Shown here: positions 5,626 through 56,772 of the stretch, one piece after another
Layout of the letters: every line of letters starts with the position of its first letter
Position numbering within the stretch: position 1 is the first letter of the stretch
NCBI GenBank assembly: GCA_041649135.1
Contig: JBAZNQ010000001.1
Span: 361,983 to 425,982, forward strand
Source of the DNA: Patescibacteria group bacterium
GTDB lineage: Bacteria; Patescibacteriota; Kazan-3B-28
Direction of reading: 5' to 3'
Length of the DNA: 64,000 nucleotides
Position numbers and translations under genes: made by a program
Notes under the pieces: generated by a model
Told to the model about the DNA's origin: nothing
The model's database searches: none
What the model saw: the letters and a program-made list of their open reading frames with translations, nothing else

Positions 5626-5836
5626 GCTTAAATTCTACCTTCTTACACTCCCTGCGCAATTCTAGTTTTTATTTGCAGTTATGTTACGATTTAGATACTG
5701 GCGTCGTGGGGAACGCCGGTTTTTAAAATACAAAAGCGGGCGATTTGGCTTTTCAGCCTCCTCTCACCCGCTTTATCGAATAAATTCTTGCACCAGACTA
5801 AACAACCGTTCAGTCCAGTGCAGAAAAAGTACAACA

Positions 5837-6412
5837 TTACCGACACTCCACCAACCAAACTTGGTTAGGCCAAACCGAGATCATGCCCTCCAATGATAAC
5901 GCTGCATCAGTATCGTATGCGATCAGGTAGCGACCCGAAGGCCAATCCGAGGCCACAAACCACGCAACTTCCTTGTCGTCCACCTTGATATCACCCGAGT
6001 ATCGCAATGCTTCGGTGGACCAGCCGGATTCTGTATTATCAATCGCTCTCACTCGTAGTGCCCGTTTGCCAAACACTTGTGCCAGTTGACCGGCTGGGTA
6101 AAAATAAAACTCAAACGAGCCGGTGGCACTATAGGCTTCGGCACCATACTTCCGCCATGTAGCATCCGTGGTGGCTGATATATCGAGGTACATCTCGCTC
6201 TTGCCTTCGAACACCTTAGATATAGCCACTACTGGCAACGGACTTCCCCAGTCTTGATCGATGTACGCCCCGATCTTGTCAGGACCGCTAAGAGATGAGA
6301 CTGGCTGATTATCTGCTGTCACCACCAAGGCCGGCTTGTGGATATTCATCCACCAATAAGCTCCAAGGAGGATGATCAGCAACACCACGAAAACCAAGAA
6401 TTTCTTGGCCAC
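5837..6412 (-). CDS. Hypothetical membrane-anchored protein
   Basis: N-terminal hydrophobic helix; no recognisable motif. Confidence 0.4.
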   Translation of the reverse strand: MAKKFLVFVVLLIILLGAYWWMNIHKPALVVTADNQPVSSLSGPDKIGAYIDQDWGSPLPVVAISKVFEGKSEMYLDISATTDATWRKYGAEAYSATGSFEFYFYPAGQLAQVFGKRALRVRAIDNTESGWSTEALRYSGDIKVDDKEVAWFVASDWPSGRYLIAYDTDAALSLEGMISVWPNQVWLVECR

Positions 6413-7718: not shown

Positions 7719-7792
7719 TTCGCTTCACCTCCTCTTAATCAAATTAGAACAAGGGCAGACTACCAAAAAATCCCCTCCCTGCCTACCCCCAA

Positions 7793-7832
7793 CTGTATTA
7801 CCTATTTGTACGATCGTACAAATAGGTAATAC
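7793..7832. promoter_or_regulatory. 38-bp perfect palindrome (gtattacctatttgtacgatcgtacaaataggtaatac), upstream of tgt
   Basis: Perfect dyad symmetry centred on CGATCG. A near-identical second copy lies at 50248-50288. Confidence 0.6.
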
Positions 7833-7844
7833 ACATCCCAAAAA

Positions 7845-7872
7845 GAAAACCGCCCTTTCAGGCGGCCTTCTT
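7845..7872 (-). terminator. Intrinsic terminator after rplL (ggccgcctgaaagggcggtttt + T-run on the minus strand)
   Basis: Hairpin followed by a T-rich tract on the minus strand. Confidence 0.6.
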
Positions 7873-7901
7873 GATATTACTTAATCACTAGATACTGAAT
7901 A

Positions 7902-12167: not shown

Positions 12168-12608
12168 TTATCCAGTACTGCCGAACCCCCCACGCGTCTT
12201 AGCTCTTACATTACCGACTTCTCTAAAGTCCGCTCTCCCTATCCTAACAAATGTTCCTTGAGCAAATCTTTCGCCCTTTTCAATGGTCAAAATCTGATCA
12301 CCCGTATTTAATACCTGCACCAGCACCTCGTCTTCGGCTCCGCAATAATCACTATCAATAATTCCCACCCCATGCGGCATCACTAATCCCATTTTTTTCT
12401 TCGGTGTCCCAGACCTCAAAGTCACCATTAAATAAAATCCTTTAGGTGTCTCCACAATTAAATTGGAGGGGACTCGCACCAGCTCTTTCGGCTGGATTTT
12501 GATATCCTCCCGAGCATAAATATCAAACGCTGCCGCACCACTTGTCTGGTACTCCGGCATCGGCAAACTCGAATCTACTCGTTTGATATTCACTCTCATA
12601 CCGGTCAT
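12168..12608 (-). CDS. dut: dUTP diphosphatase
   Basis: dUTPase motifs AGFD, RSG, GIIDSDYCGAED, RGGFGSTG. The start is probably MTGMRV at 12608, which has an RBS gggaggg. The ORF track extends a further 46 aa upstream; that extension is not supported. Confidence 0.8.
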   Translation of the reverse strand: MTGMRVNIKRVDSSLPMPEYQTSGAAAFDIYAREDIKIQPKELVRVPSNLIVETPKGFYLMVTLRSGTPKKKMGLVMPHGVGIIDSDYCGAEDEVLVQVLNTGDQILTIEKGERFAQGTFVRIGRADFREVGNVRAKTRGGFGSTG

Positions 12609-12654
12609 TATATCACCCTCCCTAGTCCCGATTGGCCATTGGAGCGAGGTCGTA

Positions 12655-12870
12655 TTGAATTGAGATAAATTGCCGTCGCGGGGGCATGTCTGACGAGAAC
12701 TTTGTTCGAGGAGTTTGCCCTTTAAGCGGTAAGACAATTTATCCAATGAACAGACCGAGCGAACACGGCCACGGCTTTGGTTACTTTCGCCAAGACGAAA
12801 GTAACGCCGGATCGAACGCCGGCGCAGCGTTCGCTAAACCAAACAGCCGGCTTTCGCCGGCTGCCTAAGA
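12655..12870. repeat. Repeat family B copy 1 (~220 nt, internal hairpins, terminator-like 3' stem-loop)
   Basis: The ~70-nt core (ggccacggctttggttactttcgccaagacgaaagtaacgccggatcgaacgccggcgcagcgttcg) is identical to 54050-54120. The flanks are ~70% identical. The terminal hairpins differ in sequence but both form. Confidence 0.8.
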
Positions 12871-17230: not shown

Positions 17231-18136
17231 CTACAGCGCCAGCAACAATGTATCGATCGCTCCTTTCAAATTCACATTATCCCGAATCTGCTTTACTGCT
17301 ATCTGCATCCGTTCTAGTCCTTTGACCGCTTTTTCATTCGGCAACATTTCCCTCCAAACCATCATCCCAGCCCGAATAAACTCCACCGCTTCATCGCGAT
17401 CTTTCAATTTTTCCGACCAACCAAATTTTGTTTCAACATCAGCCGTCTGCACTTTTTGCCAGAATGTCATCATTTCCTTATAGTCCACCCACCAAATCGA
17501 CATTTCTTCCCAATCTTTTACTTGCCCAGCACTCCCACCCGAAGCCGCAATTTGTTCGTCAGTAGCCTGTGGCACAATTTTTTTAATTTCTGCATCTGTC
17601 AGCGGACCGAATCTCACTACTTGTGCTCGTGACACGATCGTTGGCAACAACGCCTCTTCATTCGGCACGATCAAAATGATCACCGTGTCATCTCTCGGCT
17701 CTTCCAAAGTTTTCAACAACGCATTTTGAGCCGCATCATTTAAATTTTGGGCATCATCAATAATTGCCACTTTATATTTCGATACCATTGGCGACATCAT
17801 CAACCGTCGTGTCAGTTCCCGCATTGCCCCAATCCATTCCCTGGTCTTTTCTTTACTGACCTCATCTAAAATCTGCGAATACCAAAACGTATCCGGATGA
17901 TTTTGTGTTGCTGGTGGCTGGTGGCTAGTGGCTAGTGGCTGACTATGCAAATATTGTGCCAACGCTTTCGCCGCCGTCCTTCTTCCCACACCCTTCGGCC
18001 CAGCAAATATCAACGCTTGCGGCAAATTTCCCGACTCCAAAGTCGCCAACAACCATTTCTTGGCTGTTGCCTGTCCCTCCAAATCAGAAAACACCTCCTT
18101 CACTTCCATAATCCGATTATACCAGCCCATACCCAC
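17231..18136 (-). CDS. holB: DNA polymerase III delta-prime subunit
   Basis: AAA+-like GPKGVGRRTAA; LLKTLEEP; IVSRAQVVRF sensor motif. Contains an intragenic (GGCTAGT)-type heptamer repeat at ~17905-17940. The true start may be the ATG at 18109. Confidence 0.6.
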   Translation of the reverse strand: MGMGWYNRIMEVKEVFSDLEGQATAKKWLLATLESGNLPQALIFAGPKGVGRRTAAKALAQYLHSQPLATSHQPPATQNHPDTFWYSQILDEVSKEKTREWIGAMRELTRRLMMSPMVSKYKVAIIDDAQNLNDAAQNALLKTLEEPRDDTVIILIVPNEEALLPTIVSRAQVVRFGPLTDAEIKKIVPQATDEQIAASGGSAGQVKDWEEMSIWWVDYKEMMTFWQKVQTADVETKFGWSEKLKDRDEAVEFIRAGMMVWREMLPNEKAVKGLERMQIAVKQIRDNVNLKGAIDTLLLAL

Positions 18137-18149
18137 TTACCCCCTTCCC

Positions 18150-18420
18150 CCTCGAATCAAACTCGTTATCGCAAAGCAAAATCCGGCTAGTTTAGCGCGA
18201 GCCCTGAACCCCGACTACCCGAGAATATCAACCAGTCGGGGTGAATCGGCTCAAACATAAGCCAGACAGCCAAGATTTTGCTATTGCGATAGAGTTTGGT
18301 AAGCGGAGGTGAGTTTTTCTGTCAGTTTTTGCTCATTCAAAAACTGACCGCCCAGCGCGCGGGGGCGTAGACCGCGCATAAAAGAAGACCGCCCTTTCGG
18401 GCGGTTCTTGAAAACAAAGT
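18150..18420. ncRNA. Repeat family A copy 1: candidate structured RNA/element (~250 nt), with a minus-strand terminator hairpin at 18385-18415
   Basis: Three copies (with 18975-19250 and 43560-43785) showing compensatory substitutions in at least four helices. Confidence 0.5.
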
Positions 18421-18423
18421 TGC

Positions 18424-18903
18424 CTAAACCGCTTTCGGCTTCTTGTACTTGTAATCCCCAAACGCCAACAAAGGCATGAAGATAAATGACAAAAACACCA
18501 ACCCAACAGTAAACGCCACGTCTTGCCCAAACACTCTCGCCAATTCTCTGCACATCCAAATAGCAATGACGATATTCACAAACGGCACGAACAGCAAAAG
18601 CAACCACCACCACGGCTTACCGATCATCTCCAACGCAACATAAATATTGTAAAAGGGAATAATTGCCGCCCAGCCGGGTTTATTGGCTTTGGTAAAAATT
18701 ACCCAAGTCGACACCAACATCAACGCACCAATCGCCCAATTCCACCACATGTGTGTCGCCGCTTCAAATCCACCCAACCAACCGCTCATCCAACCACCGC
18801 CCCAACCCAATGCCGTTACTGCACCAGCAGTCGTATCCAAATCATCCAACTTCACATCTTTTAGTTGATTTAACAAATCACCGATCGTCTCCGCATTTTC
18901 CAT
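18424..18903 (-). CDS. Hypothetical 4-TM membrane protein, flanked on both sides by family A repeat copies
   Basis: Hydrophobic segments; Trp-rich. Confidence 0.5.
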   Translation of the reverse strand: MENAETIGDLLNQLKDVKLDDLDTTAGAVTALGWGGGWMSGWLGGFEAATHMWWNWAIGALMLVSTWVIFTKANKPGWAAIIPFYNIYVALEMIGKPWWWLLLLFVPFVNIVIAIWMCRELARVFGQDVAFTVGLVFLSFIFMPLLAFGDYKYKKPKAV

Positions 18904-18974
18904 AAAAATTCTGTTTTAAAAATGATATCTTTCGTATTGTAATCCAGCGCCCCTCCTTCAAGCAAACCCCAGAT

Positions 18975-19250
18975 TCTTTTCCCCCTTGAGTAAAGTTTGT
19001 CCTCGCCAAGCAAAATCCTGCCAGTCTAGCGCGAGCCCTGAACCCCGAGCCCCCGATAATATTGGTATCGGGGTGAATCGGCTCGAATATAAGCCAGACG
19101 ACCGAGATTTTGTTATGGCGACAAAACTTTATGAGCGGGGGTGAGTTTTTCTGTCAGTTTTTGCTCATTCAAAAACTGACCGCCCAGCGCACGGGAGCGT
19201 AGACCGCGCATAAAACAAAACAGCCGCCTTACGGCGGCTGCCTAAAAACA
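18975..19250. ncRNA. Repeat family A copy 2
   Basis: See copy 1. Terminator hairpin cagccgccttacggcggctg lies just after the clpP stop. Confidence 0.5.
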
Positions 19251-19261
19251 TAGAGGATTAA

Positions 19262-19858
19262 TTATTTTACCACCAAAGTCCGATGTTCGATCACTTCATC
19301 AATCAATCCATATTCTTTCGCCTCCGGCGCTTCCATAAAGAAATCCCTGTCGGTATCTTTTTCGATTCTGTCAATTTTCTGTCCGCTATGATGTGCCAAT
19401 AATTCATTCAACTTGCTTTTCCACTTCAGAATTTCTTTAGCGTGAATTTCAATATCACTCGCCTGTCCTGATGCTCCACCTAAAACTTGATGAATCATCA
19501 CCCGAGAATTTGGCAAAGCAAATCTCTTTCCTTTTGCACCACCTGCGAGTAATACCGCTCCCATCGAAGCCGCCATCCCCACACAAATTGTACTGATGTC
19601 CGGTTTGATGTGTTGCATCGTGTCATAAATCGCCATTCCGTCAGAAACTGAACCACCGGGGCTATTGATATATAGCGCAATATCTTTCTTCGTGTCTTCG
19701 CTTTCCAAAAACAATAACTGGGCGATTACTGAATTCGCCAGCTCATCATCAATCGGGCCACCGATAAAAATAATCCGATCCTTTAGAAGCCGCGAGTAAA
19801 TATCATACGCTCGCTCGCCTAACGGACTCTTGTCTATCACCATCGGTATCAAACTCAT
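19262..19858 (-). CDS. clpP: ATP-dependent Clp protease proteolytic subunit
   Basis: Ser/His/Asp catalytic context ([14 protein letters not shown]). Confidence 0.9.
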
Positions 19859-28216: not shown

Positions 28217-28227
28217 ATAAGCAAAAG

Positions 28228-28252
28228 CCGAGGCATACGCCTCGGCTTTTAT
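28228..28252. terminator. Hairpin aaagccgaggc...gcctcggcttt
   Basis: Perfect inverted repeat flanked by A and T runs. Confidence 0.65.
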
Positions 28253-28378
28253 ACTTCTCCCTCGTCCCTAGGTGGAGATGGGAGCAGGTCAGCTTGGTTC
28301 TGTCATCCGACAGAACTCGACTTCGTTGACTGACCGTTGAGGGAAGAACACACCTCGTTCTTTCCTCAAGAGCGTTAG

Positions 28379-28578
28379 TTAGACAGCGGCTTCGTCAGAC
28401 TTGACCTCTTCACCAGCCACAGCTGGAGTTTCGGCTTCTTCGACTTCGTCATCAGCCTCGTCAGTTCCGGCCGCATCAGCAGCTGGAGCGTCATCAGTTA
28501 CAACAGCGTCATCGGCTGGGGTAACTGGAGTCTCAACGATCTCTTCATTTTCCAATGGGGCGTTGTTCATGTCAGTCA
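28379..28578 (-). CDS. Small highly acidic protein (~66 aa, D/E/A/T-rich)
   Basis: Start MTDMNN with RBS ggag. The ORF track offers a longer N-terminus, which I reject. Confidence 0.45.
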
Positions 28579-40178: not shown

Positions 40179-40194
40179 CAAGACTCTATCTCGT

Positions 40195-40288
40195 CGTGTC
40201 ATTCCCGCGTAGGCGGGAATCCAGACAGAAAAAGAAAAATTGTTTTTTGTTTTTTCTAGATTCCCGCCTACGCGGGAATGACAACTTG
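40195..40288. repeat. MITE-like element (gtcattcccgcgtaggcgggaatcc ... attcccgcctacgcgggaatgac)
   Basis: Nested hairpins and an A/T-rich palindromic core. Confidence 0.7.
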
Positions 40289-40289
40289 T

Positions 40290-40373
40290 GGGCGTGTGGC
40301 GAAATGGTATACGCACTAGCTTTAGGAGCTAGCGGGGCAACCCATGAAGGTTCAAGTCCTTTCACGCCCACCA
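40290..40373 (+). tRNA. tRNA-Leu (anticodon TAG), class II
   Basis: Acceptor GGGCGTG/CACGCCC; anticodon loop TTTAGGA; long variable arm; CCA end. Followed by a terminator at 40383-40412. Confidence 0.7.
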
Positions 40374-40559
40374 AAACAAAGCGAAGCCTTGAGGCTTTGT
40401 TTTGTTTTTATGAGTACAAAAAGGACGAGAAGCAATGTCCGCCAAAATGAAATCTATATCGCAAGAGGCTGATGACCTATTTGCGATGAGACTGAACGCG
40501 AGGAGATTCAACCCACCAGTTTTTATACTCGCTTGACACGAATTTTGTATTCCTATAAC

Positions 40560-41610: not shown

Positions 41611-41624
41611 ATTGTGTTCTAACA

Positions 41625-41660
41625 CAAATTTAAAATCCCCCGACTCGGTTGGGGGATTTT
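41625..41660. terminator. Bidirectional terminator aaaatcccccgactcggttgggggatttt
   Basis: Perfect hairpin with A and T runs on both sides. Confidence 0.7.
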
Positions 41661-41748
41661 AAATTACCCACATGAACTGTCATTCTGGTAAGCCCAGCCC
41701 CTAAGGAGTCCCGACGTATCCAGAATGACAACTGCTAAGGAAGAGTTC

Positions 41749-41795
41749 TATTGGCTATTGGCTATTGGCTATTGGCTATTGGCTAGTGGCTAAAC
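41749..41795. repeat. Heptanucleotide tandem array (TGGCTAT)x~6
   Basis: Read directly from the sequence. It abuts the htrA stop codon. Confidence 0.9.
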
Positions 41796-41798
41796 TCT

Positions 41799-43481: not shown

Positions 43482-43559
43482 TATTCCTTACGCCAGTATC
43501 TTCTCCGCCATCGGAAGCTTGGAATGTGTCTTAACTCCCCTTCGAGCAAATCTCGTCAT

Positions 43560-43785
43560 CGGAAAATAAAATCAAGCCAAATCTGGCGCAAGCCTTGAGT
43601 CCTGATAACCCGTTTAATATTTACGTCAGGACGAATCGGCTTGGATATAAGCCAGATGACTGGATTTTATTATTGCGATAGAGATTCGTGAGCAGGGGTG
43701 AGTTTTCCTGTTCGCTTTTGCTCACTCAAAAGCGAACCGCCCAGCGCGCGGTGGCGTAGACCGCGCATAAAATTAATAAGATTCT
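43560..43785. ncRNA. Repeat family A copy 3
   Basis: See 18150-18420. This is the most divergent copy and the source of the covariation evidence. Confidence 0.5.
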
Positions 43786-43872
43786 GGATAATCCAGAATG
43801 ACGGAAAAACCAAGAAATAAGATTGCTTCGTCGCAAACTCCTCGCAATGACAAAGAGAAAGAAAAAACAAAG

Positions 43873-53843: not shown

Positions 53844-53944
53844 GGTACCCCTACCCTACTATAAAATCCGCTCCCAAGCAATACTTCTCCTCTTTGAGCC
53901 AATTGTGCCTTGTTTTAATCCGGCCCTTCAACGGAGGGGCGTTC

Positions 53945-54165
53945 TGAATTGAGCTAAATTGGCGCAGGCGTAGGCATGTCTGACGAGGTGGCAACCGAGA
54001 AGTTTGCCGATAGCGAAGAAAGCCAATTTAGCCAATGAATAGACCCGTAGTTGCGGGCCACGGCTTTGGTTACTTTCGCCAAGACGAAAGTAACGCCGGA
54101 TCGAACGCCGGCGCAGCGTTCGAAACTACAAACACCGCCTTTCAGCGGTGCTCATATTTTCTAAC
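53945..54165. repeat. Repeat family B copy 2 (directly downstream of the 16S 3' end)
   Basis: See 12655-12870. Confidence 0.8.
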
Positions 54166-54414
54166 CAGAAAGTACCCAGAGAGCTTTCACGTTTAAACCA
54201 CAAGTTGTCGTCTAAACGTGCGACCGTGTTCTATAGAAGATAGAACTGCAACCAAGCTTTCACTTGGTCAGTAATCTCCCTAGAAAGGAGGTATTCCATC
54301 CCCACCTTCCGGTAGGGATACCTTGTTACGACTTCACCCCGATCATGAGCTCCACCTTAGGCCTCTTGCGAAGATTTCGGATGTTTCTCACTTTCTTGGT
54401 GTGACGGGCGGTGA

Positions 54415-55199
54415 TTGCGATTAGGTAGTTTCTATCGCTCCCCACTGGACGTGCGTGTCTAGCGCATCCAGCGAGTCTCTATGTCGTATTAATCCGATTC
54501 TAGCTATCCCTGTAGCGGTTAGATGTTCTTTCCGCTCTATCATTTCTGCAACTTCACAAAACTTTTCGAATTGTAATTTTTTCTTGGCTTGAAGCGGGTA
54601 ACTTCGGAAGAAAGGAATAATCTTATTCCTGATATCCGAGAAGTTGCTCACTTTGTACTTCACGTGTGGTTGCCATTTATCGAACTTTTCGTATTCCAAG
54701 CGATAAATGTTGCCACAACCAAGTGTTGCTTTAATTTTCTCCAAGATAGCTTCATCATCTTCCCGAAGTTCAATCTCGAAAATCAATCGAACTTCCGGTA
54801 AACGACTGCCGTTTTTATTGACTGTGATGCAAAAACATCCTTCTCCGTCAACAAATCCGACAATATAGTTTGGATCTAACATAGAGTTCACCCCTTCATC
54901 TGCTCTTATTATAGAACAAACTACTACGGGCTCAGCTGACTTCCTTTTGACCATAACAACTACACTCGTCAAAAGGATCTCCCTGGGTCACACATTGGGC
55001 TATTTCTGACATTCCTACGCGAGCTCTTCTATGGTTTCTTCTCTTGCGTACACGGCAAGATCGAAACGCTCTTAAATGCGTAAGACTACCATTTGCATAT
55101 TGGCTCCTTCAGGCTTTTCCTTACGGAAGAAGCCCTAGCCTTAGCTATAAAGTCGGATTCTCACCGACTAGTCCAATGCGCTGCCAGGCGCATTTATTT
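54415..55199 (-). other. Intervening sequence (intron-like, probably group I) in 16S at ...CUUGUACA|CACCGCCCGUC
   Basis: The flanking exon sequence reconstitutes the universal CTTGTACACACCGCCCGTCACACC when 54415-55199 is removed. The insert carries a LAGLIDADG ORF. Confidence 0.75.
54421..54972 (-). CDS. LAGLIDADG homing endonuclease (single-motif)
   Basis: NYIVGFVDGEGCF motif. The real start is probably the Met at ~54882. Confidence 0.75.
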   Translation of the reverse strand: MTSVVVMVKRKSAEPVVVCSIIRADEGVNSMLDPNYIVGFVDGEGCFCITVNKNGSRLPEVRLIFEIELREDDEAILEKIKATLGCGNIYRLEYEKFDKWQPHVKYKVSNFSDIRNKIIPFFRSYPLQAKKKLQFEKFCEVAEMIERKEHLTATGIARIGLIRHRDSLDALDTHVQWGAIETT

Positions 55200-55624
55200 T
55201 GTACAAGACCCGAGAACGTATTCACCGCAACATGGCTGATTTGCGGTTACTAGCGATTCCGGCTTCATGGGGTCGAGTTGCAGACCCCAATCCGAACTGG
55301 GGGTAGTTTTGCTGGGTTTGGCTCCACCTTACGGCTTAGCGTCCCATTGTGACCTACCCATTGTAGCACGTGTGTCGCCCAAGATATAAAGGCCACGCTG
55401 ATTTGACGTCATCCCCACCTTCCTCCGTGTTAACCACGGCAGTCTCGCCAGACACTTGTAACTGGCAATAGGGGTTGCGCTCGTTATCCGACTTAACGGT
55501 ACATTTCACAACACGAGCTGACGACAACCGTGCAGCACCTGTCTCTGCTGTCTTGCGAGGGGCTCTATTTCTAGTGCCTTTCAGCAGGATGTCAAATCTT
55601 GGTGAGGTGCCCGGCTTACCATCC

Positions 55625-55679
<55 letters not shown>

Positions 55680-55780
55680 TAGTCTTGCGACCGTACTCCC
55701 CAGGCGGGATACTTAACGCGTTAGCTTCGTCACTGGGGGGGTCGAAGCCACCAATGACTAGTATCCATCGTTTAGGGCGT

Positions 55781-55814
<34 letters not shown>

Positions 55815-56202
55815 ACGCTTTCGTCCATGAGTGTCAGGGCCGGCCCAGTTGTCTGCCTTCGCCTTTGGTGTTCCTTATCGTATCAACGGATATTACCCCT
55901 ACTCGATAAGTTCCGACAACCTCTACCGGCCTCAAGACCAACAGTTTCCAACACCTTCCCTCGGTTGAGCCGAGATATTTAACGTTGGACTTGTTGATCC
56001 ACCTGCGGACCCTTTACGCCCAGTGAATCCGAATAACGCTTGGCGCCTACGTATTACCGCTGCTGCTGGCACGTAGTTAGCAGCGCCTTATTCGCTTAGT
56101 ACCGTCATAATCTTCCTAAGCAAAAGAAGTTTACAAACCGAAGTCCGTCTTCCTTCACGCGGCATTGCTCCATCAGGCTTTCGCCCATTGTGGAAAATCC
56201 CT

Positions 56203-56247
<45 letters not shown>

Positions 56248-56772
56248 CTGGGGGGTCACCCTCTCAAGCCCCCTACCGATCAGTGCCTTGGTAGGCCTTT
56301 ACCCCACCAACAAGCTAATCGGACGCAGGTCTCTCTTCGAGCGATAAATCTTTCCTCTTACGAGAATATCCAGAATTATCCTGCCTTTCGGCAGGTTATG
56401 CTGAACTCGAAGGTAAGTCCCCACGTGTTACTCAGCCGTTCGCCATGGTACCCTTGCGGGCCATTCAACTTGCATGTGTTAGGCATGCCGCCAGCGTTAA
56501 TCCTGAGCTAGGATCAAACTCTCAAAAAAGTATATTTTTATTCCACTTCTGGAATTTAAAGTTTTGAATTCACGAAGCTCTCTAAGTACTCTCTAGTTGG
56601 AAAAGTACGACTAGTTGAGAGTCGCGCTATCCACCAGAGGCCAAATAAAACCAAGATTCCGGTTACCGGAATCCGCAAGGTTTACAGTTCGACCTGACTG
56701 GAAAAGATTAATACAACTCTAGTGGGTATTTTAATCCCCACCACCACCCCTGTCAACACTCTAATTTCAAAG

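What the first reader, a model, noticed from the sequence alone, without database searches (positions are those of the whole stretch)
18150..19250. Three-copy ~250-nt element with compensatory base changes: candidate novel structured RNA family
Copies lie at 18150-18420, 18975-19250 and 43560-43785. Copies 1 and 2 are close in sequence; copy 3 has drifted. Several imperfect inverted repeats are nevertheless preserved by paired changes. In the first hairpin, cagtttttgctcattcaaaaactg becomes tcgcttttgctcactcaaaagcga: the stem bases change in pairs while the loop gctcaytc is unchanged. A second hairpin has three different stems (ccccgact...agtcgggg, ccccgata...tatcgggg, gtcctga...tcaggac). A long-range closing helix also covaries (gcaaagcaaaatc/gattttgctattgc against ataaaatc/gattttat). 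A fourth helix covaries as gtctagc/gccagac against atctggc/gccagat. The conserved single-stranded stretches are GGTGAGTTTT, CGCCCAGCGC and GCGTAGACCGCGCATAAAA. Copies 1 and 2 bracket one small membrane-protein gene in the same orientation, and each follows a minus-strand terminator hairpin. Copy 3 lies behind another membrane-protein gene in the same relative orientation. It is not tRNA, tmRNA, RNase P, SRP RNA or 5S rRNA by motif inspection.
Basis: seen in the sequence. Interest (0 to 1): 0.78.

Follow-up and report, generated by a model that had tools for sequence, protein, structure and literature searches.

The report
Multi-copy pseudoknotted intergenic RNA-like element
A previously undescribed ~240-base element, repeated in the gaps between genes of a small group of ultra-small (Patescibacteria/CPR) bacteria, keeps a long stem and a pseudoknot intact through many paired mutations; it is most likely a new structured non-coding RNA of unknown job.

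Summary
The window holds five members of the family, not three, all on the + strand: 18145-18384, 18979-19216, 43535-43773, 12623-12840 and 53885-54130. Related members occur in at least four other Patescibacteria genomes (loci L144, L151, L156 and L166).

No Rfam family matches, and there is no match in the phage or plasmid collections.

The three reported copies are only 77-84% identical. Even so, 96% of 216 pair cells stay paired, and 18 of 72 pairs changed on both sides. Slid controls gave 0-3 such pairs, and none of 500 shuffles reached the observed values.

I revised the fold:
- A terminal C-run:G-run helix (P0) closes a ~145-nt rod.
- An H-type pseudoknot follows: a 4-nt strand, a U-rich linker, an 11-bp hairpin with an invariant U4:A4 tract, and a loop that pairs back to the 4-nt strand.
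- That pseudoknot helix occurs in four fully complementary versions: UGAG:CUCA, UGUC:GACA, CAUC:GAUG and CGCC:GGCG.
- A small hairpin (P7) and an AUAAAA tail complete the element.

Every member lies antisense to its neighbours. Its 3' end abuts the stop codon or terminator of a convergent gene or rRNA.

Sites differ between genomes and the modules are mosaic, which points to spread by duplication.

Function, transcribed strand, and whether the folded molecule is RNA or single-stranded DNA remain untested.

The parts
18145..18384 (+). Copy 1 (type I), in the DUF5684-holB spacer. Sub-parts: P0 5' strand 18147-18151; rod (P1a-P4) 18157-18299; P0 3' G-run 18305-18309; pseudoknot S1 5' strand 18310-18313; U-rich L1 18314-18320; P6 18321-18331/18338-18348 with loop 18332-18337 (S1 3' strand 18332-18335); linker 18349-18356; P7 18357-18362/18372-18377; AUAAAA tail 18378-18383.
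18979..19216 (+). Copy 2 (type I), in the clpP-DUF5684 spacer. Pseudoknot core at 19142-19180. This spacer holds no element in relatives L144, L150, L151, L153 and L154.
43535..43773 (+). Copy 3 (type I, most diverged). It lies between the 3' end of a + strand 139-aa gene and the 3' end of the minus-strand DUF5656 gene. Pseudoknot core at 43699-43737. It carries L1 U->C together with a P6 U-A->C-G change.
12623..12840 (+). Fourth member (type II 3' domain), in the rplA-dut spacer. It has the rod apex CAUGUCUGA...GAGUUUGC, the invariant strand ACGGCUUUGG, a 9-10 bp P6 with loop CCAAGA, and P7 CGAACG/CGUUCG. It is syntenic with L156:10436-10651.
53885..54130 (+). Fifth member (type II), about 130 nt beyond the 3' end of the minus-strand 16S rRNA gene and before a small minus-strand membrane-protein ORF.
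18388..18405 (-). Intrinsic terminator of the DUF5684 gene, directly abutting the tail of copy 1. Its loop is GAAA on the gene strand.
19218..19243 (-). Intrinsic terminator after clpP, abutting the tail of copy 2 (loop GUAA). It is nearly identical to the hairpins next to the fourth member and L151A, apart from compensatory changes, so it may travel with the element.
43781..43799 (-). Terminator-like hairpin after the DUF5656 gene, abutting copy 3.
12843..12862 (-). Terminator hairpin (loop GAAA on the gene strand) abutting the fourth member.
54134..54151 (-). Terminator-like hairpin between the 16S rRNA 3' end and the fifth member.
18116..18124 (-). Probable holB promoter (TGGTATAAT), 6 nt before the ATG at 18109, which would give a leaderless mRNA. 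It is conserved as TGGTACAAT / GGGTATAAT in L144 and L151. It lies about 20 nt outside the 5' end of copy 1. Its near-symmetric -10 could also fire towards the element; that last step is inference.
   Evidence: sequence read directly

Best explanation
SHOWN:
- This is a lineage-restricted family of ~180-260-nt intergenic elements in a clade of Patescibacteria (candidate division Kazan relatives).
- There are several copies per genome, and their fold is under selection.
- The fold is as follows. A C-run:G-run helix (P0) closes a ~145-nt imperfect rod (P1a-P4). Then comes an H-type pseudoknot made of S1 (4 bp), a 7-8-nt U-rich linker, and an 11-bp P6 whose top is an invariant G-C plus four U-A pairs. 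In its 6-nt loop, the first four bases form S1. A 7-9-nt linker, the P7 hairpin and an A-rich tail follow.
- The family spreads by duplication into new spacers and exchanges modules between copies.

INFERRED (most likely):
- The folded molecule is an RNA read from the window + strand, antisense to the neighbouring genes.
- It may start from the near-symmetric -10 box of the adjacent divergent promoter.
- It may be trimmed back to the stable hairpin it shares with the convergent gene.
- The U-run probably lies in the major groove of the A-U tract of P6 as U.A-U triples, as in SAM-II, preQ1-II and telomerase pseudoknots. That would give a rigid P0-S1-P6 coaxial stack.
- I propose that this stack is a protein-binding or decay-resistant scaffold.

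The biological role is not known.
For: Repeat and family:
-. All members are linked by nhmmer at E from 1e-5 to 1e-33.
- CM scores: 53.5 and 51.9 bits in L151; 32 and 20.7 bits in L166.

Covariation:
- 72 pairs, 96.3% paired, 18 changed on both sides vs 0-3 in slid controls, 0/500 shuffles.
- pseudoknot core from 5 distinct sequences, 15 pairs, 100% paired, 9 changed on both sides, S1 3 of 4.
- L144/L151A add a fourth S1 version, CAUC:GAUG.
- The strict motif scan hit only family members in 1.2 Mb of sequence, scanned on both strands.
- The relaxed scan gave 1 hit in 2.08 Mb of unrelated strand sequence and 0 in reversed controls.

Triplex hints:
- The four U-A pairs and the U-run never vary.
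- U-run length tracks A-tract length (5/5, 4/4, 6/5).
- Copy 3 changes L1 U->C together with P6 U-A->C-G.

Strand:
- The element strand has GC skew of -0.03 to +0.15, against a background of -0.13 to -0.23 on the same strand.
- It folds 4-19 kcal/mol better than the opposite strand in the five relatives tested, L144, L151A, L151B, L166C and L166D (L156 was not tested).
- P6 in L166C has a G.U pair that would be an A.C mismatch on the other strand.

Not coding:
- ORFs differ between copies, and the indels are not multiples of three.

Spread:
- The clpP-DUF5684 spacer is filled only in this lineage.
- Occupied spacers differ between genomes.
- Modules are mosaic.

No known family:
-.
Against: - There are no expression data.
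- On the + strand the flanking hairpins lack a U-tract, so they are not terminators for a + strand RNA. Their loops are GNRA on the gene strand.
- No conserved promoter lies upstream of the element. Divergent firing from the neighbour's -10 box is conjecture.
- In the three reported window copies the opposite strand folds 2-8 kcal/mol better.
- G.U versus A.C counts in those copies are balanced.
- The triplex register is ambiguous, and L166C needs a one-base shift.
- The type II members (the fourth, the fifth and L156) have no room for the U-linker, so the pseudoknot is not universal.
- The sample is about 11 distinct sequences from about 5 genomes.
Confidence: 0.5

Rival explanations
1. The functional strand is the gene-sense (window minus) strand. 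On this reading the element is a generic intercistronic or 3'-UTR module placed right after a gene's stop codon or terminator. When the terminator is read through, it folds into the mirror-image pseudoknot plus rod. It would then block exonucleases, act as an RNase III processing site, or insulate the next (leaderless) transcription unit.
For: - Every member begins 0-130 nt after the end of an upstream co-oriented gene or rRNA.
- In L166C the P6 hairpin starts at the rplL stop codon.
- Terminator loops are GNRA on this strand, and the hairpin seems to travel with the element.
- The window copies fold slightly better on this strand.
- All S1 pairs are Watson-Crick, so the pseudoknot can form on either strand.
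- The rplA-dut copy is conserved in synteny.
Against: - Most copies lie behind an efficient-looking terminator, so little sense transcript would reach them.
- The relatives fold much better on the other strand, and their G>C skew favours the other strand.
- The G.U pair in L166C P6 becomes A.C on this strand.
- The linker U->C change paired with U-A->C-G is isosteric only for a U-strand triplex.
- Presence is sporadic across orthologous spacers, which argues against a needed cis function.
Confidence: 0.2
2. It is a non-autonomous mobile DNA, REPIN-like. On this reading it is mobilised as folded single-stranded DNA by a transposase encoded elsewhere in the genome. The fold would be kept because the enzyme recognises it, with no RNA role.
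For: - Multi-copy and extragenic, with different spacers occupied in different genomes.
- A filled site versus empty sites at clpP-DUF5684.
- Mosaic modules.
- All five window copies lie on one strand of a region with uniform strong GC skew, meaning a single replication direction. That is what lagging-strand-template transposition would produce.
- REPINs also show frequent compensatory changes in a long hairpin and persist vertically (PMC3116915).
- The CAAAAUC/GAUUUUG core of P1 is conserved in sequence in most type I members.
Against: - No transposase, TnpB, IscB or reverse transcriptase was found among the large ORFs of the window.
- There are no terminal inverted repeats, no target duplication, and no conserved flanking target motif (flanks read).
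- No REP-type GTAG core is shared across the subtypes.
- Copies are 16-24% diverged yet still fully folded.
- A pseudoknot with four covarying versions has no known role in single-strand DNA transposition.
- The rplA-dut copy is syntenic across distant relatives.
Confidence: 0.2
3. It is the scaffold of a guide RNA (omega-RNA-like) for a TnpB/IscB-type nuclease encoded elsewhere. On this reading the variable sequence after the AUAAAA tail would be the guide.
For: - Its size of ~240 nt, with multiple stems plus a pseudoknot and a possible triple helix, resembles the ISDra2 omega RNA. That RNA is 247 nt, with a 116-nt core of four stems, a pseudoknot and a triple helix (PMC10097598).
- It is multi-copy.
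- The sequence just 3' of the tail differs between copies.
Against: - In omega RNA the pseudoknot uses the bases next to the 3' guide. Here it joins a hairpin loop to an upstream strand, and P7 and the tail intervene before the 3' flank.
- There is no tnpB or tnpA in the window or in the fetched loci.
- There is no conserved target-adjacent motif at the other end.
- L166C has no P7 or tail at all.
Confidence: 0.07

Closest known systems
REPIN / REP elements (mobilised by RAYT transposases)
   Same: - Multi-copy, extragenic and often next to gene 3' ends.
- A long imperfect hairpin kept by compensatory changes.
- Long vertical persistence (PMC3116915).
   Different: - Here there are ~240 nt in two domains, one of them a pseudoknot.
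- No shared REP core such as GTAG.
- Only a few copies per 10-60 kb were seen.
- No RAYT was seen.
- Copies differ by 16-24%.
H-type pseudoknots with a U-rich loop 1 lying in the major groove of an A-U stem (SAM-II/SAM-V and preQ1-II riboswitch aptamers; telomerase RNA pseudoknot). This comparison rests on my own knowledge of those structures.
   Same: - The same order of parts: S1 strand, U-run, A/U-rich S2, loop pairing back, short loop 3.
- An invariant U/A tract.
- One change consistent with a C+.G-C replacement.
   Different: - No Rfam match to any of them.
- It is not in a 5' UTR on its own strand.
- S2 is 11 bp.
- It is embedded in a much larger RNA with a 145-nt rod.
- The triplex is inferred, not shown.
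TnpB / Cas12 omega-RNA and guide-RNA scaffolds
   Same: - Similar length.
- Several stems with a pseudoknot and a triple helix.
- Associated with multi-copy elements.
   Different: - The pseudoknot topology differs.
- No nuclease or transposase gene nearby.
- No target-adjacent motif.
Modular intergenic repeats (BOX, ERIC, Correia/NEMIS). This comparison rests on my own knowledge.
   Same: - Mosaic modules.
- Intergenic location.
- Predicted stable folds.
- Can supply or sit next to terminators.
   Different: - Those elements have terminal inverted repeats or boxA/B/C modules, and no covarying pseudoknot.
- They are unrelated in sequence.

Membership tests
Any Rfam 15 family (including tRNA, tmRNA, RNase P, SRP, 6S, HEARO/IscB omega RNA, SAM-II/V, preQ1-II) | A covariance-model match at or near the family's gathering score | tested here: not met
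   At gathering thresholds the window gave only rRNA, tRNAs and one group II fragment. The E<=10 scan of 17800-19600 gave only terminator-like noise below 20 bits. L144, L151 and L166 gave only tRNAs. The region 53850-56600 gave no hit on the fifth member.
REPIN / REP | A long hairpin formed by two inverted conserved cores, kept by compensatory changes | tested here: met
   The rod (P1a-P4) has 46 pairs, 14 of them changed on both sides. The P1 core CAAAAUC/GAUUUUG recurs in most members.
REPIN / REP | A short conserved REP core (GTAG-type) shared by all copies, at high copy number | tested here: not met
   GTAG occurs only in the P7 loop of the type I window copies. Other subtypes have GCAG or UGUA at that position. 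Only 5 copies were found in 64 kb.
REPIN / REP | A single-copy RAYT (TnpA-REP) gene in the same genome | not testable with these tools
   Only 64 kb of the genome and loci of about 20 kb or less from relatives could be read. No such gene was found among the ORFs scanned.
MITE | Terminal inverted repeats and a target-site duplication | tested here: not met
   The ends are ...TCCCC(C)TYGAG on the left and ...CATAAAA on the right, which are not complementary. The flanks share no direct repeat.
IS200/IS605 PATE carrying a TnpB omega RNA | A pseudoknot formed by the bases just 5' of a 3' guide; a conserved target-adjacent motif flanking the left end; similar subterminal hairpins at both ends | tested here: not met
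   The pseudoknot joins the P6 loop to an upstream strand, whereas the omega-RNA pseudoknot uses bases -5 to -3 next to the guide. The left flanks differ between copies: CCCCT, TCTTT, TTAAC, TTCCA, CCTCA. The left-end region and P7 are unrelated.
IS200/IS605 PATE carrying a TnpB omega RNA | tnpB or tnpA present in the genome | not testable with these tools
   None in the window or the fetched loci. Complete genomes could not be read.
Riboswitch or 5'-leader cis-regulator | Lies upstream of, and on the same strand as, a functionally coherent set of genes | tested here: not met
   On the element strand no gene follows. On the other strand the downstream genes are holB, DUF5684, dut, a TPR protein, tgt, DUF4145 and a small membrane protein. 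Copy 3 has none.
Integron attC site | A 57-141-nt imperfect palindrome with R''(RYYYAAC) and R'(GTTRRRY) boxes, next to promoterless cassettes | tested here: not met
   There are no R boxes at the base of the rod (sequence read). The neighbours are housekeeping genes with their own promoters.
Protein-coding small ORF | A conserved reading frame across copies | tested here: not met
   The 52-aa ORF in copy 2 and the 52-aa ORF in L151A are unrelated. Copies differ by 1- and 2-nt indels.

The most novel reading that the evidence does not exclude
A new class of bacterial non-coding RNA specific to a Patescibacteria clade. It would be a ~240-nt RNA whose core is a triplex-stabilised H-type pseudoknot stacked on a terminal helix and a 145-nt rod. 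It would be made antisense to its neighbours, kept in several diverged paralogues per tiny genome, and able to colonise new intergenic spacers. That would make it an RNA-centred, self-propagating element, or a scaffold for an unknown protein partner, in organisms whose RNA biology is almost unexplored.
Probability: 0.3. Interest if true: 0.8.

Novelty: new variant of a known kind. Interest (0 to 1): 0.66.

Why it matters
Patescibacteria (CPR) have tiny genomes of roughly 0.5-1 Mb, cannot be grown alone, and have almost no described regulatory RNAs. Despite that, this lineage spends 1-2% of the sequence examined on one elaborately folded element that is kept intact through 16-24% sequence divergence.

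If it is an RNA, it is a new structured family with a well-supported pseudoknot. It would be ready for R-scape analysis, chemical probing and pull-down of a partner protein.

If it is mobile, it would be a rare non-autonomous element whose fold, rather than terminal repeats, is what selection preserves. It would also be a marker for tracing genome dynamics in uncultured lineages.

Either way, it gives a covariance-model seed for annotating these genomes.

Tried and rejected
1. Public-collection pattern scans.
- GGTGAGTTTT..CCGCCCAGCGC gave only chance hits in the viral and metagenome collections.
- As a result, no whole-genome census was possible.

2. nhmmer with the 3-copy profile found nothing in relatives. 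Members appeared only with the covariance model run with filters off, and with single-sequence nhmmer.

3. The RNAalifold helix 'P5' (GGGUG:CGCCC) was dropped for type I members. It competes with P0 and S1 for the same G-run, never covaries, and its 3' strand is absent in L144, L151A, L166C and L166D. A P5 does covary in type II members.

4. The apparent 'flipped' P6 loop in L144 (GGAUGAGC vs GCUCAUUC) was first read as an inversion. It is explained instead by covariation of the pseudoknot helix.

5. Pairing of the U-run with the AUAAAA tail was rejected. The tail is invariant while copy 3 changes the U-run.

6. A 5'-UTR or Shine-Dalgarno role for the G-run on the gene strand was rejected. No start codon follows at a fixed distance, and holB and dut appear leaderless from promoters lying beyond the element.

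7. An internal promoter (YTYGAR-20 nt-CAAAAT) was considered and rejected, because it would exclude half of the covarying rod from the transcript.

9. The phage and plasmid collections gave no match.

10. The literature searches run (Patescibacteria / structured or non-coding RNA; TnpB omega RNA; REPINs) turned up no description of this element.
Full report
**1. The observation**

Reading the sequence and aligning the three stretches confirms three + strand copies. A profile built from them finds exactly those three at E<1e-88 and nothing else at that level.

They are not close copies. Identity is 83.8% between copies 1 and 2, and 76-77% between either of them and copy 3.

RNAalifold on either strand predicts 62-65 pairs, 12-13 of which changed on both sides.

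**2. Setting**

The host is a Patescibacteria (CPR) MAG.
- The neighbouring genes are DUF5684 and DUF5656 membrane proteins, holB, clpP, tig and ribosomal proteins.
- The same sequence occurs in ENA and JGI contigs.
- The closest named ClpP relatives are 'candidate division Kazan'.

Around copies 1 and 2 every gene is on the minus strand. Each copy sits between the intrinsic terminator of the upstream gene and the promoter of the next gene.

holB appears leaderless: TGGTATAAT lies 6 nt before its ATG, and the same arrangement is conserved in relatives. That start assignment is my inference.

No transposase, TnpB/IscB or reverse transcriptase is among the large ORFs.

GC skew is -0.1 to -0.3 across the whole window whatever the gene direction. 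The window therefore lies in a single replication arm.

**3. Not a known family**

- Rfam 15 gives nothing on the element, either at gathering thresholds or at E<=10.
- Related loci give only tRNAs.
- The phage and plasmid collections have no match.
- The literature searches I ran found no description of it.

**4. More members**

My first collection scans failed. One was wasted on a GC-rich pattern. I therefore walked through relatives using the neighbouring proteins.

The gene order clpP-DUF5684-holB-TPR is conserved, but the spacers are not:
- Some relatives are compact (L153, L154, and the P0006 contig).
- Some hold an unrelated antisense zinc-ribbon ORF (L142, L166).
- Some hold the element.

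With its filters off, the 3-copy covariance model R1 finds:
- L151:4379-4567 (53.5 bits) and L151:5568-5776 (51.9 bits)
- L166:17766-17941 (32 bits) and L166:8992-9138 (20.7 bits)
- L144:10538-10654 (19.3 bits)

In the window itself it finds a weak fourth member in the rplA-dut spacer.

A motif from the rod apex (CATGTCTGA..AGTTTGC) then revealed a fifth member at 53885-54130 (with its adjoining terminator hairpin at 54134-54151). Shuffles expected 0.00 hits for this motif.

Single-sequence nhmmer links all members transitively, at E from 1e-5 to 1e-33. It also adds L156/L157:10436-10651, which is in the same rplA-dut spacer as the window's fourth member.

So the family has both a syntenic, apparently inherited copy and lineage-specific copies. 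For example, the clpP-DUF5684 spacer is filled only here.

Modules are mosaic. The fourth member shares its P7, linker and terminator with L151A, and its rod apex with L151B, L166C and L166D.

**5. Revised structure**

Three changes to the RNAalifold picture follow from the wider set.

(a) *P0 and P1a.* The conserved left end (TCCCC(C)...) pairs with the G-run just before 'UGAG'; I call this helix P0. It covaries as CCCCC:GGGGG versus CCCCU:AGGGG. The rod extends outward by a further helix, P1a, which covaries at 5 of its 8 pairs.

(b) *The pseudoknot.* The four bases after the G-run pair with the first four bases of the P6 loop. Across members this helix (S1) reads UGAG:CUCA, UGUC:GACA, CAUC:GAUG and CGCC:GGCG.
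- The geometry is nearly constant: L1 of 7-8 nt, P6 of 11 bp, a 6-nt loop, and a 2-nt loop 3.
- On five distinct cores, all 75 pair cells are paired and 9 of 15 pairs changed on both sides, against 1-4 in slid controls. S1 covaries at 3 of 4 pairs.
- A strict scan for this arrangement found only family members in 1.2 Mb of sequence, scanned on both strands. A relaxed scan gave 1 hit in 2.08 Mb of unrelated strand sequence and none in reversed controls.
- This also explains why the L144 loop looked like the reverse complement of the window loop.

(c) *P5.* RNAalifold's P5 competes with P0 and S1 and is not supported outside the window's type I copies.

On the full 3-copy alignment the revised structure has 72 pairs and 96.3% of cells paired. 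18 pairs changed on both sides, against 0-3 in slid controls, and 0/500 shuffles reach the observed values.

Type II members (the fourth, the fifth and L156) have a different 3' domain:
- P5, P6 and P7 covary.
- The strand ACGGCUUUGG and the loop CCAAGA are invariant.
- There is no space for a linker, so the classical pseudoknot is not universal.

**6. A triple helix? (inference)**

The top of P6 is an invariant G-C followed by four U-A pairs, and L1 always starts with a U-run of matching length.

In copy 3 the fifth U of L1 is a C, and the fifth pair of P6 has changed from U-A to C-G. That is the isosteric C+.G-C replacement expected if L1 lies in the major groove.

This is a single event, and L166C needs a shifted register. 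The triplex is therefore a hypothesis.

It resembles the SAM-II, preQ1-II and telomerase pseudoknots (my own knowledge). The TnpB omega RNA also combines a pseudoknot with a triple helix, but its topology is different.

**7. Which strand, and RNA or DNA?**

For the + strand:
- Element-strand GC skew is -0.03 to +0.15, against -0.13 to -0.23 for the surrounding sequence on the same strand.
- The five relatives tested (L144, L151A, L151B, L166C, L166D) fold 4-19 kcal/mol better on this strand; L156 was not tested.
- A G.U pair in L166C P6 would be an A.C mismatch on the other strand.
- The triplex logic applies only to this strand.

Against the + strand:
- The adjoining hairpins are terminators only for the gene strand, with GNRA loops on that strand.
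- No conserved + strand promoter exists.
- The window copies fold 2-8 kcal/mol better on the other strand.

Compensatory change in hairpins is also typical of REPINs, which are mobilised as single-stranded DNA (PMC3116915). The data therefore prove a selected single-strand fold, not an RNA.

I rate the alternatives as follows:
- + strand RNA: about 0.5
- Gene-strand RNA: about 0.2
- DNA-level mobile element: about 0.2
- Guide-RNA scaffold: below 0.1

**8. Verdict**

This is a real, previously uncatalogued family of structured elements with a well-supported pseudoknot. It is restricted, as far as I could sample, to one Patescibacteria clade, is present in several diverged copies per genome, and can spread to new spacers.

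Its function is unknown. The link to membrane-protein genes is incidental.

Noticed in passing
window 54283-56529 (minus strand): The 16S rRNA gene is interrupted. Rfam aligns 55148-56529, but the true 3' end (reverse complement of ...GGATGGAATACCTCCTTTCT) lies at about 54283. The intervening ~850 nt hold a 183-aa ORF (54421-54972) with a LAGLIDADG-like motif (NYIVGFVDGEGCF) and a weak 'group-II-D1D4-1' Rfam hit at 54891-54974.
   Followed up: partly
window 18109-18124 and 12600-12625 (minus strand); L144:10775-10803; L151:4625-4654: holB and dut appear to be leaderless. A TATAAT box (often TGnTATAAT) sits 6-7 nt before the ATG, and this is conserved in relatives. The gene callers placed the holB start further upstream.
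   Followed up: partly
L142:~645-805 and L166:10700-10945 (minus strand of each locus): In two relatives the spacer that holds the element here instead carries a small antisense ORF. It encodes a zinc-ribbon-like peptide with CPxCG...CxxCG motifs.
   Followed up: no
L142:~880-945 and L151:~5865-5925 (minus strand of each locus): A second conserved, hairpin-forming intergenic motif (GAAAUYRCGGCUUAGCRAUUUCCGGUUKGAU, flanked by CCCG...CGGGG) lies upstream of holB in one genome and upstream of the TPR gene in another. It is unrelated to the main element.
   Followed up: no
window 1-64000: GC skew is strongly negative (-0.11 to -0.29) in every 4-kb bin, including stretches where genes are on the + strand. 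The window therefore lies in a single replication arm with unusually strong strand asymmetry.
   Followed up: no
window 40179-40532: This is the most strongly structured spacer in the window (z of -12 to -15 on both strands). It surrounds the 81-nt tRNA at 40290-40370. CM R1 gave only weak hits there. It could be an intron-bearing or tandem tRNA region.
   Followed up: no
window 17905-17945: A short tandem repeat (gctggtggctggtggctagtggctagtggctg) lies inside the 5' part of the holB-like ORF.
   Followed up: no
L151:4575-4640 (minus strand): The left-end motif of the element (CCCATCGA(G/A)TCAATTGCG) occurs twice in tandem next to L151A. This may be a remnant of a second, deleted copy.
   Followed up: no
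window 5626-5836, 7719-7901, 28217-28400, 41611-41798: Several other spacers fold far better than shuffled sequence (z of -5 to -9). They were not examined. For a reduced genome this one has many long intergenic regions.
   Followed up: no
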